64,000 nucleotides of DNA, taken from contig OZ231126.1 in the NCBI GenBank assembly GCA_965153355.1, positions 13,950,001 to 14,014,000 on the forward strand, written 5' to 3'. The notes below the pieces were generated by a model. It ran no database searches, was not told where the DNA came from, and saw only the letters and a program-made list of their open reading frames with translations. Shown in pieces: positions 46,001 through 46,666 of the stretch; position 1 is the first letter of the stretch; each line of letters starts with the position of its first letter. A program made the translations under genes and the position numbers. The DNA comes from Flaccisagitta enflata. Taxonomy: Eukaryota.

Positions 46001-46666
46001 TCCAATTTGCGTCGCGAATGCGCCGTCGAAGGTTGCAACCAATATTTCTACGACGACGAATCATTGCAACGCCATCTGGAATCCCACGAAATCAGGCATA
46101 AATCGACGAGTTACAAAAGAGCAGCCGAAATGACGGAAGTGGAAAGACTCGATTTTAACCGGAAGAGAAGAGAAAGATATCGACGACTGAAAGGCGCCGG
46201 AAGGGGATTGAGAAACGGCGGTGTCGGTGGTGACGGACGTGGTGGTGGTGGTGGTGGTGACGCACTTGGGGGTGTTGTTGGGCATGAGGGGGATTGGGGT
46301 TATGGACCGGATGGCGGGGGATGGGAATTCAATGGCGGTGATGGATCAGCTAATAGGGGTTGGGGATTTGGGGGTGGTGATGGTACAGCAAATGGGGGAT
46401 GGGGGTACGGGGGTGGCGACGATACTGGTTGGAATCTTGTCAAGGATGATTTGCGCACGAGTTGGGGTACAGATGAAAGATTGGATAACAGAAAAAATGA
46501 TAAAGACTTTAAATTTCATTCCGACGAGAAGTTGAAAGACCAAGTGGTGGAAGATGAAGAGGAAGAGGAGAAAGCGGTAGAAGTCAGTGCCAAATATGCT
46601 TGTGGAGATGACAATGCGCCTCCAGTGGCTAAAACCGGACTATGTGGATTGTTACAAAGGTTGTAG
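37063..46666 (+). CDS. Dispersed multi-C2H2 zinc-finger protein with AT-hook and GW/WG-rich C-terminus
   Basis: Exons 37063-38804, 39157-39490, 39958-40656(or 40663), 41371(or 41354)-41550, 42053-42251, 42613-43091, 43452-43686, 45450-45595, 45998-46666; about 13 C..C..H..H fingers; AT-hook RKRGRPKK at 40504-40527. Additional small exons possible. Confidence 0.82.
43705..44110. repeat. (TG)n decaying into TGTGTCTTTG / TGTGTC repeats
   Basis: Direct inspection. Confidence 0.9.
44226..44385 (-). mobile_element. HINE family A variant
   Basis: ATACACGGC..GGGTGGGCAGGGGC..(GACG)n..GTCCGCAACTAAAAA. Confidence 0.7.

What the first reader, a model, noticed from the sequence alone, without database searches (positions are those of the whole stretch)
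46290..46470. Zinc-finger/AT-hook protein ends in a GW/WG platform (candidate Argonaute hook)
Seen: the last exon encodes [61 protein letters not shown], i.e. six Trp all in GW/WG context, spaced about 9-13 aa in a Gly/Asp-rich disordered segment. The same protein has ~13 widely dispersed C2H2 fingers and an AT-hook. Established: reiterated GW/WG motifs bind Argonautes (GW182/TNRC6, plant NRPE1 and SPT5L, fission-yeast Tas3), and dispersed-finger proteins such as WIZ/ZNF644 act as chromatin adaptors. Inference: a lineage-specific DNA-binding adaptor that could couple small-RNA effectors to chromatin in a transposon-saturated genome.
Basis: partly seen in the sequence, partly recalled or inferred. 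Interest (0 to 1): 0.7.

Follow-up and report, generated by a model that had tools for sequence, protein, structure and literature searches.

The report
Tryptophan-repeat tail on zinc-finger protein
A marine animal's large zinc-finger protein ends in a short floppy tail with six tryptophans that resembles the hooks other proteins use to grip Argonaute silencing proteins; the tail looks real and shaped by selection, but its partner is untested and it could equally be an ordinary gene-activating tail.

Summary
Window 46292-46474 encodes six Trp, all GW/WG, spaced 9-13 residues apart, in the last exon of a nine-exon model (about 1,560 aa, 12 regular and 1 degenerate C2H2 fingers, one AT-hook pattern). 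The Trp cluster is not chance (P=0.0004); being next to Gly is only marginal in a 37% Gly stretch (P=0.05). A rebuilt published WG/GW scorer passes it (dos 43.3; ics 2.06, borderline), the only one of 202 candidates in the window, but that scorer also passes endomembrane Gly-rich proteins. The tail grew by tandem duplication, and its copies differ mostly silently (pN/pS about 0.2), so it is probably translated and selected. Not shown: splicing of this exon to the others (weak acceptor, no junction read), conservation (no orthologue found), any binding. Best reading: a Trp-docking tail, Argonaute as partner about 35%; acidic-aromatic activation or condensate tail about 30%.

The parts
37063..38804 (+). 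Exon 1 of the model (first ATG directly after an acceptor AG, so an upstream exon probably exists): basic N-terminus, 3 C2H2 fingers, Ser-Pro-Asp-Pro repeat region, SIM-like motifs
   Evidence: donor in the top 0.1% of GT sites
39157..39490 (+). Exon 2: two C2H2 fingers
   Evidence: Pfam zf-C2H2 E=1.4e-6; in frame
39958..40663 (+). Exon 3 (ends 40656 or 40663): acidic stretch, degenerate finger at 40222, finger at 40417, AT-hook pattern, Ala/Thr run
40504..40527 (+). AT-hook pattern (Arg-Gly-Arg-Pro core with basic flanks), single copy
   Evidence: pattern match; no Pfam AT_hook hit; consensus recalled
41354..41550 (+). Exon 4 (starts 41354 or 41371): one finger
   Evidence: both junction choices keep the frame, 1568 or 1560 aa
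42053..42251 (+). Exon 5: SIM-like motifs, one finger
   Evidence: (zf-C2H2_ZNF462 E=4.7e-4, below cut-off)
42613..43091 (+). Exon 6: one finger, short Lys/Met/Glu repeats
43452..43686 (+). Exon 7: one finger
45450..45595 (+). Exon 8: one finger
45998..46666 (+). Exon 9 (last): finger, basic helix, Gly-rich linker, GW/WG array, acidic end, stop
   Evidence: acceptor weak; three metatranscriptome contigs lie inside it, none over the junction
46019..46087 (+). C2H2 finger in the same exon and frame as the tail
46160..46186 (+). Basic run on a predicted helix, possible nuclear localisation signal
   Evidence: helix 47-68 is the best-predicted part of the exon model; pattern; function inferred
46292..46474 (+). 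GW/WG array: six Trp in a Gly/Asp-rich stretch, net charge -7 over 62 residues
46337..46416 (+). 39-bp tandem duplication (2.1 copies, 80% matches) behind two Trp units; differences mostly silent
45847..45847 (+). Rival splice acceptor; if used it shifts the frame and removes the last finger and the tail
   Evidence: score 8.8 versus -0.7 for 45998; translation stops at about 46098

Best explanation
A lineage-specific nuclear zinc-finger scaffold has grown, by tandem duplication in its last exon, a short, disordered, acidic Gly-rich array of six Trp motifs that selection has kept. The array works like an Argonaute hook: two or three Trp side chains at a time enter the pockets on the PIWI domain of an AGO-clade Argonaute, giving a weak multivalent grip, while the AT-hook, basic helix and isolated fingers hold the protein on chromatin or on other proteins. 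Shown: the sequence, the reading frame, the repeat origin, the excess of silent differences, the match to the compositional criteria. Inferred: splicing to the upstream exons, nuclear location, disorder, and the partner. A PIWI partner and a transposon target are further, less likely steps.
For: Six of six Trp in GW/WG context, none of the other seven; clustering P=0.00043. Rebuilt Karlowski scorer: dos 43.3 (cut-off 6.99), ics 2.06 (cut-off 2.14), the only one of 202 six-frame GW-seeded domains in the window to pass both. Repeat copies: 6 silent vs 3 replacement differences over 13 codons, pN/pS 0.18, binomial P=0.012; over 22 codons 0.23, P=0.004; the other two + frames give 3.6 and 0.8; permutation P=0.017. 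Plant NRPE1 platforms also grow by repeated expansion with no homology between species (PMC4476159 passages), and C-terminal GW extensions are common among candidates (PMC2910046). An acidic patch helps SGS3 bind AGO1 pockets (bioRxiv 10.1101/2025.10.18.683247 abstract passage). All 8 modelled introns are GT-AG and in frame.
Against: No binding test was possible. Gly adjacency alone is marginal, P=0.05. The scorer also passes Gly-rich proteins annotated to the endomembrane system with higher dos (78, 108, 131, 65), and about half the trimmed score of 64 comes from the Trp-free Gly linker upstream (core alone 43). Composition departs from known platforms: Ser 3% vs 15%, Tyr+Phe 6.5% vs 1.8%; four of six Trp have Tyr or Phe two residues on. 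No orthologue found. No RNA piece covers the first five Trp or the junction. Acceptor 45998 scores -0.7, below all 12 DNAI1 acceptors (5.5-16.5, scored on their own training set), and four upstream AGs score higher. Only six Trp, against more than 40 motifs in SPT5L. The selection test shows constraint on the repeat, not specifically on Trp.
Confidence: 0.35

Rival explanations
1. The tail is an acidic-aromatic effector region of a transcription or chromatin factor: an activation domain whose Trp, Phe and Tyr touch coactivators, or a sticker-and-spacer tail for condensates. Gly next to Trp is a by-product of a Gly-rich repeat.
For: Net charge -7 with 10 aromatic residues in 62; Tyr/Phe two residues after four of six Trp, and Phe/Tyr exchanged between copies; Gly adjacency P=0.05; it sits at the end of a multi-finger protein with an AT-hook pattern. 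That acidic activation domains depend on aromatic residues is recalled, not looked up here.
Against: 37% Gly and few Leu are unusual for activation domains (recalled); the regular 9-13 spacing of Trp and the pass on both scores fit a pocket-docking motif better.
Confidence: 0.3
2. The tail docks by Trp into a non-Argonaute partner, such as CCR4-NOT or PAN3 (as the C-terminal W motifs of GW182 do), or an ATG8-family protein through its one LIR-like motif.
For: C-terminal GW repeats of GW182 bind NOT1 and PAN3 rather than AGO (PMC4031385 passage); this array is C-terminal; one LIR-like pattern at the fifth Trp.
Against: No RNA-binding or other silencing module was found in the protein; a LIR-like pattern is short and common.
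Confidence: 0.2
3. The tail has little function, or is missing from the main isoform because acceptor 45847 is used.
For: Stronger rival acceptor; no junction or core coverage in RNA; no orthologue; the three population differences listed just after the array all change residues.
Against: Silent-site excess in exactly this frame; an intact finger in the same frame; contigs in three RNA runs fall in this exon and none in the preceding intron (runs were chosen by this exon).
Confidence: 0.15

Closest known systems
Plant nuclear WG/GW platform proteins: NRPE1, SPT5L/KTF1, SPT6L/GTB1, and the CCCH/GYF protein At2g16470 (name NERD recalled)
   Same: Chromatin-type protein with a repeat-derived, Gly-rich WG/GW extension; similar score range (At2g16470 dos 59.9, SDE3 74.5).
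   Different: Those are plant proteins with shown or proposed AGO4 binding and mostly longer, Ser-rich platforms; this is an animal protein with C2H2 fingers, six Trp, little Ser and no binding data.
GW182/TNRC6
   Same: Disordered GW/WG repeats, the ligand type of the three Trp pockets of metazoan AGO.
   Different: GW182 has an N-terminal AGO-binding region, UBA-like domain and C-terminal silencing domain with RRM; no such Pfam family was reported on any of the nine exons.
Ciliate GW proteins Wag1p, CnjBp (Tetrahymena) and Nowa1/2 (Paramecium)
   Same: GW or GGWG repeats in nuclear small-RNA pathways; Gly-Arg motifs beside GW repeats, as here.
   Different: They partner PIWI-type proteins in ciliates; CnjB's zinc knuckles (recalled; paper not held) are not C2H2 fingers.
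Drosophila Small ovary (Sov)
   Same: Large multi-C2H2 protein (21 fingers) linking the piRNA pathway to heterochromatin; has SIMs, and SIM-like patterns occur here.
   Different: Sov binds Panoramix through an LxxLL motif and SUMO, not Argonaute through Trp; homology to Sov was not tested directly.
WIZ / ZNF644
   Same: Widely spaced C2H2 fingers in a chromatin scaffold (search listing).
   Different: No sequence link found; no GW tail is known for them (recalled); G9a/GLP binding untested here.

Membership tests
WG/GW Argonaute-binding platform | Reiterated GW/WG motifs | tested here: met
   6 of 6 Trp in the array; clustering P=0.00043; adjacency P=0.05 given composition
WG/GW Argonaute-binding platform | Compositional scores dos >= 6.99 and ics <= 2.14 (Karlowski 2010) | tested here: met
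   dos 43.3, ics 2.06 under the stricter of two readings of the formula, 1.12 under the other. My reconstruction reproduces the value 61.29 seen in the paper's list for 5-residue domains; plant matrix; ics borderline
WG/GW Argonaute-binding platform | Rich in Ser, poor in Tyr/Phe | tested here: not met
   Ser 3.2% vs 15.2%; Tyr+Phe 6.5% vs 1.8% (reference table)
WG/GW Argonaute-binding platform | Intrinsically disordered | tested here: inconclusive
   No secondary structure and block pLDDT 37-45 over the array, but a single-sequence model with mean 49.5 is low almost everywhere
WG/GW Argonaute-binding platform | Trp motifs kept in orthologues | tested here: inconclusive
   No orthologue found; one RNA contig covers the sixth Trp with no change listed
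WG/GW Argonaute-binding platform | Trp-dependent binding to an Argonaute | not testable with these tools
GW182/TNRC6 | N-terminal AGO-binding region, UBA-like domain, C-terminal silencing domain with RRM | tested here: not met
   No such Pfam family on nine exons at E<=0.5; architecture differs
WIZ/ZNF644-type scaffold | Widely spaced C2H2 fingers | tested here: met
   Gaps between 12 fingers 2-324 aa, only two under 20
WIZ/ZNF644-type scaffold | Sequence homology and G9a/GLP binding | tested here: inconclusive
   Only exon 9 was searched against the large protein sets and gave three unrelated finger proteins; binding not testable
Sequence-specific C2H2 transcription factor | Tandem fingers with canonical linkers and basic or polar recognition helices | tested here: not met
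   9 of 12 helices net negative, 2 neutral, 1 positive; no canonical linker after any finger
AT-hook protein | Arg-Gly-Arg-Pro core with basic flanks | tested here: inconclusive
   One pattern match; Pfam model not reported

The most novel reading that the evidence does not exclude
An animal chromatin protein that carries its own Argonaute hook and so recruits an AGO-clade (or a divergent PIWI) small-RNA complex directly to AT-rich or repeat chromatin: a plant RdDM-like tether reinvented in a repeat-rich marine animal. None was found in the listings of my paper searches.
Probability: 0.12. Interest if true: 0.78.

Novelty: new variant of a known kind. Interest (0 to 1): 0.42.

Why it matters
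In animals the known Trp-pocket ligands of Argonaute are mainly cytoplasmic GW182 proteins, and nuclear silencing is bridged by other interfaces (for example Panoramix-Sov). A C2H2/AT-hook protein with a working hook would give a direct, mutable link between AGO and chromatin in an animal, and a 60-residue peptide makes the test cheap. If the tail binds something else, this is one more lineage-specific aromatic tail on an orphan zinc-finger protein, of modest interest. Similar tails were noted by this scan in several unrelated genomes, which lowers the surprise.

Tried and rejected
Orthologue searches found nothing for the tail: word-seeded search among longer proteins, 0 of 8000 scored; phmmer on 1.84 billion representatives, 3 hits, all to the finger only, with 1, 1 and 0 GW/WG; metagenome contigs with exon 9 (0 of 601 pattern matches confirmed) and exon 3 (0 of 584); viral contigs (0 of 44); Atlas, tail blank, whole exon only sub-0.9 leads; PDB, best E=0.91; Pfam, no family on the tail. 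Exons 1, 2 and 4-8 were scanned only against Pfam. No whole genome is held, so the animal's AGO, PIWI and GW182 genes and any paralogues could not be examined. RNA: five runs held 5-12% of the exon's words; four runs were laid on 44800-47600 only, so junctions between exons 1-8 were not examined. Run X6 gave 3 partial reads in 12.2 million records and may be another organism. Rejected: a frame or microsatellite artefact (silent-site excess only in the exon frame and its antisense mirror); a dispersed repeat inserted in exon 9 (0 bases overlap in-window repeats); membership of GW182. The fold model was too poor for a fold search. Four primary papers on hook geometry and ciliate GW proteins were not held, so the preferred Trp spacing of about 10 or more residues is recalled only.

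Full report
Observation. The quoted peptide is at 46292-46474 on the + strand. Its six Trp all touch Gly and are 9, 13, 13, 10 and 11 residues apart; the protein's other seven Trp are not GW/WG. Six of 13 Trp within 57 residues is unlikely by chance (P=0.00043). That all six touch Gly is less telling: the core is 37% Gly, and shuffles give P=0.049.

Organism and setting. The window is from an intron-rich animal: histone H1 and an axonemal dynein intermediate chain DNAI1 gene, whose spliced product from a JGI record, P0033, matches the window's exons almost exactly. Runs holding the exon's words are marine metatranscriptomes. The phylum could not be named. Tandem repeats cover 19% and dispersed self-repeats 31% of the window, 42% together. 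No whole genome is held.

Gene model. Nine exons from 37063 to 46666 join with GT-AG introns into 1,560 codons without a stop; an alternative exon 3/4 junction (40663/41354) gives 1,568. With matrices trained on 12 DNAI1 introns, all 8 donors rank at or above the 94th percentile of local GT sites. The acceptors are mixed: 3 of 8 rank at the 99th percentile or above, and the exon 9 acceptor at 45998 scores -0.7 (77th percentile) while four AGs upstream score higher. The best rival, 45847, shifts the frame and removes the last finger and the tail. In favour of 45998: it is the first AG after the second half of the pyrimidine tract, and it keeps an intact finger in frame. One finger shares the exon and frame with the tail whatever happens upstream.

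RNA. Four runs were laid on 44800-47600. Three listed contigs fall in exon 9 (46042-46207, 46443-46593, 46481-46638); the three contig runs show no depth over 44800-46021 or 46210-46397; no joint was seen; 19 pieces were not displayed; the raw-read run gave 3 partial reads. The runs were chosen by this exon and may hold DNA. This is weak support for transcription and none for the junction. Only the sixth Trp is covered, with no change listed. The three differences listed just after the array all change residues.

Origin and selection of the tail. A 39-bp unit is present 2.1 times at 46337-46416, and the first four Trp units are visibly related. Between the two copies 6 differences are silent and 3 change residues (pN/pS 0.18, binomial P=0.012); over 22 codons at the same offset pN/pS is 0.23 (P=0.004), with 11 of 18 mismatches at third positions. 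One comparison (units 2 and 3 alone) was not significant (P=0.09). The other + frames give 3.6 and 0.8. A permutation test gives P=0.017. The stretches were chosen after seeing the repeat and the numbers are small, but the tail is probably translated and constrained. The test does not single out Trp.

Does it look like an Argonaute hook? I rebuilt the scorer of Karlowski et al. 2010 (PMC2910046; parts 1-4 of 8 of the text, supplement file 3, and part 1 of 53 of file 4). The domain 46181-46513 scores dos 43.3 (cut-off 6.99) and ics 2.06 (cut-off 2.14; 1.12 under the looser reading). Of 202 GW-seeded domains in the six frames of the window, 8 pass dos and only this one passes both. The paper's own list includes Gly-rich proteins annotated to the endomembrane system with higher dos, so passing is not specific. 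The tail has less Ser and more Tyr/Phe than the reference. A repeat origin is no objection: NRPE1 platforms expand the same way (PMC4476159, passages), and such motifs arise easily de novo (PMC4615383, passages). A single-sequence fold shows a finger helix, a basic helix and no structure over the array, at low confidence.

The rest of the protein. Twelve regular fingers are spread over the nine exons, one per exon in exons 4-9. Nine have net-negative recognition helices and none is followed by the canonical linker, so they more likely bind proteins than read bases (inference). There is one AT-hook pattern, several basic runs and SIM-like motifs. Nuclear location is likely but inferred.

Which Argonaute? 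All three Trp pockets are strongly conserved in metazoan AGO and highly variable in the PIWI clade (PMC12477606, section 35). A hook in an animal would therefore most likely grip the microRNA/siRNA-type AGO, which weakens the step to transposon chromatin. Ciliate GW proteins acting with PIWI-type partners are the exception (PMC5666084 and PMC3105430, passages). In Drosophila the multi-finger protein Sov joins the piRNA pathway by an LxxLL motif and SUMO instead (bioRxiv 10.1101/2021.07.27.453956, passages; its supplements were not seen). C-terminal GW repeats of GW182 bind NOT1 and PAN3 (PMC4031385, passage), so a Trp array does not name its partner.

Conservation. No orthologue was found in six searches, although related species are in the collections (DNAI1 84-87% identical). 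The decisive comparison is therefore open.

Novelty and verdict. The listings of five paper searches (titles and abstract starts only, open-access library) showed no animal C2H2/AT-hook protein with a GW hook; WIZ papers were seen as a listing only. The motif class and its pairing with nuclear proteins are known from plants and ciliates, so this is a new variant of a known kind. Odds: Argonaute-docking tail 0.35, acidic-aromatic activation or condensate tail 0.30, other Trp-pocket partner 0.20, little function or missing from the main isoform 0.15. Interest 0.42.

Noticed in passing
window 19176-32519 (-) and further upstream: Axonemal dynein intermediate chain DNAI1 gene; 13 exons mapped with the spliced protein P0033. 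Its introns hold partial tandem copies of exon ends: 4 at 27204-27512 and 5 at 19875-20394.
   Followed up: partly
window 34378-35580 (+): Intronless HIT-family-like gene. Closest match is an unnamed ENA protein (47%); the other 24 of 25 hits are at 25-37%, the named ones fungal or JGI-annotated. Horizontal transfer or retro-origin is possible and untested.
   Followed up: partly
window 3121-3750 (-): Intronless linker histone H1 (Pfam E=4e-23).
   Followed up: no
window 41354-46087 (+): Exons 4-9 each hold one finger; those of exons 4, 6 and 7 resemble each other most (pair scores 82, 55, 49), suggesting growth by exon duplication.
   Followed up: partly
window about 37870-38185 (+): Exon 1 holds about seven degenerate 14-residue repeats around a Ser-Pro-Asp-Pro core, a possible phosphorylation array.
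   Followed up: no
window 46502, 46541, 46544: All three differences shared by two RNA contigs just after the GW array change the residue, hinting that the acidic end is weakly constrained or fast-evolving.
   Followed up: partly
window 1186-1605 (-): hAT transposase dimerisation fragment (Pfam E=2.4e-4, just under cut-off).
   Followed up: no
window 46430-46441 (+): The fifth Trp also fits a LIR-like pattern with acidic flanks (consensus recalled).
   Followed up: no
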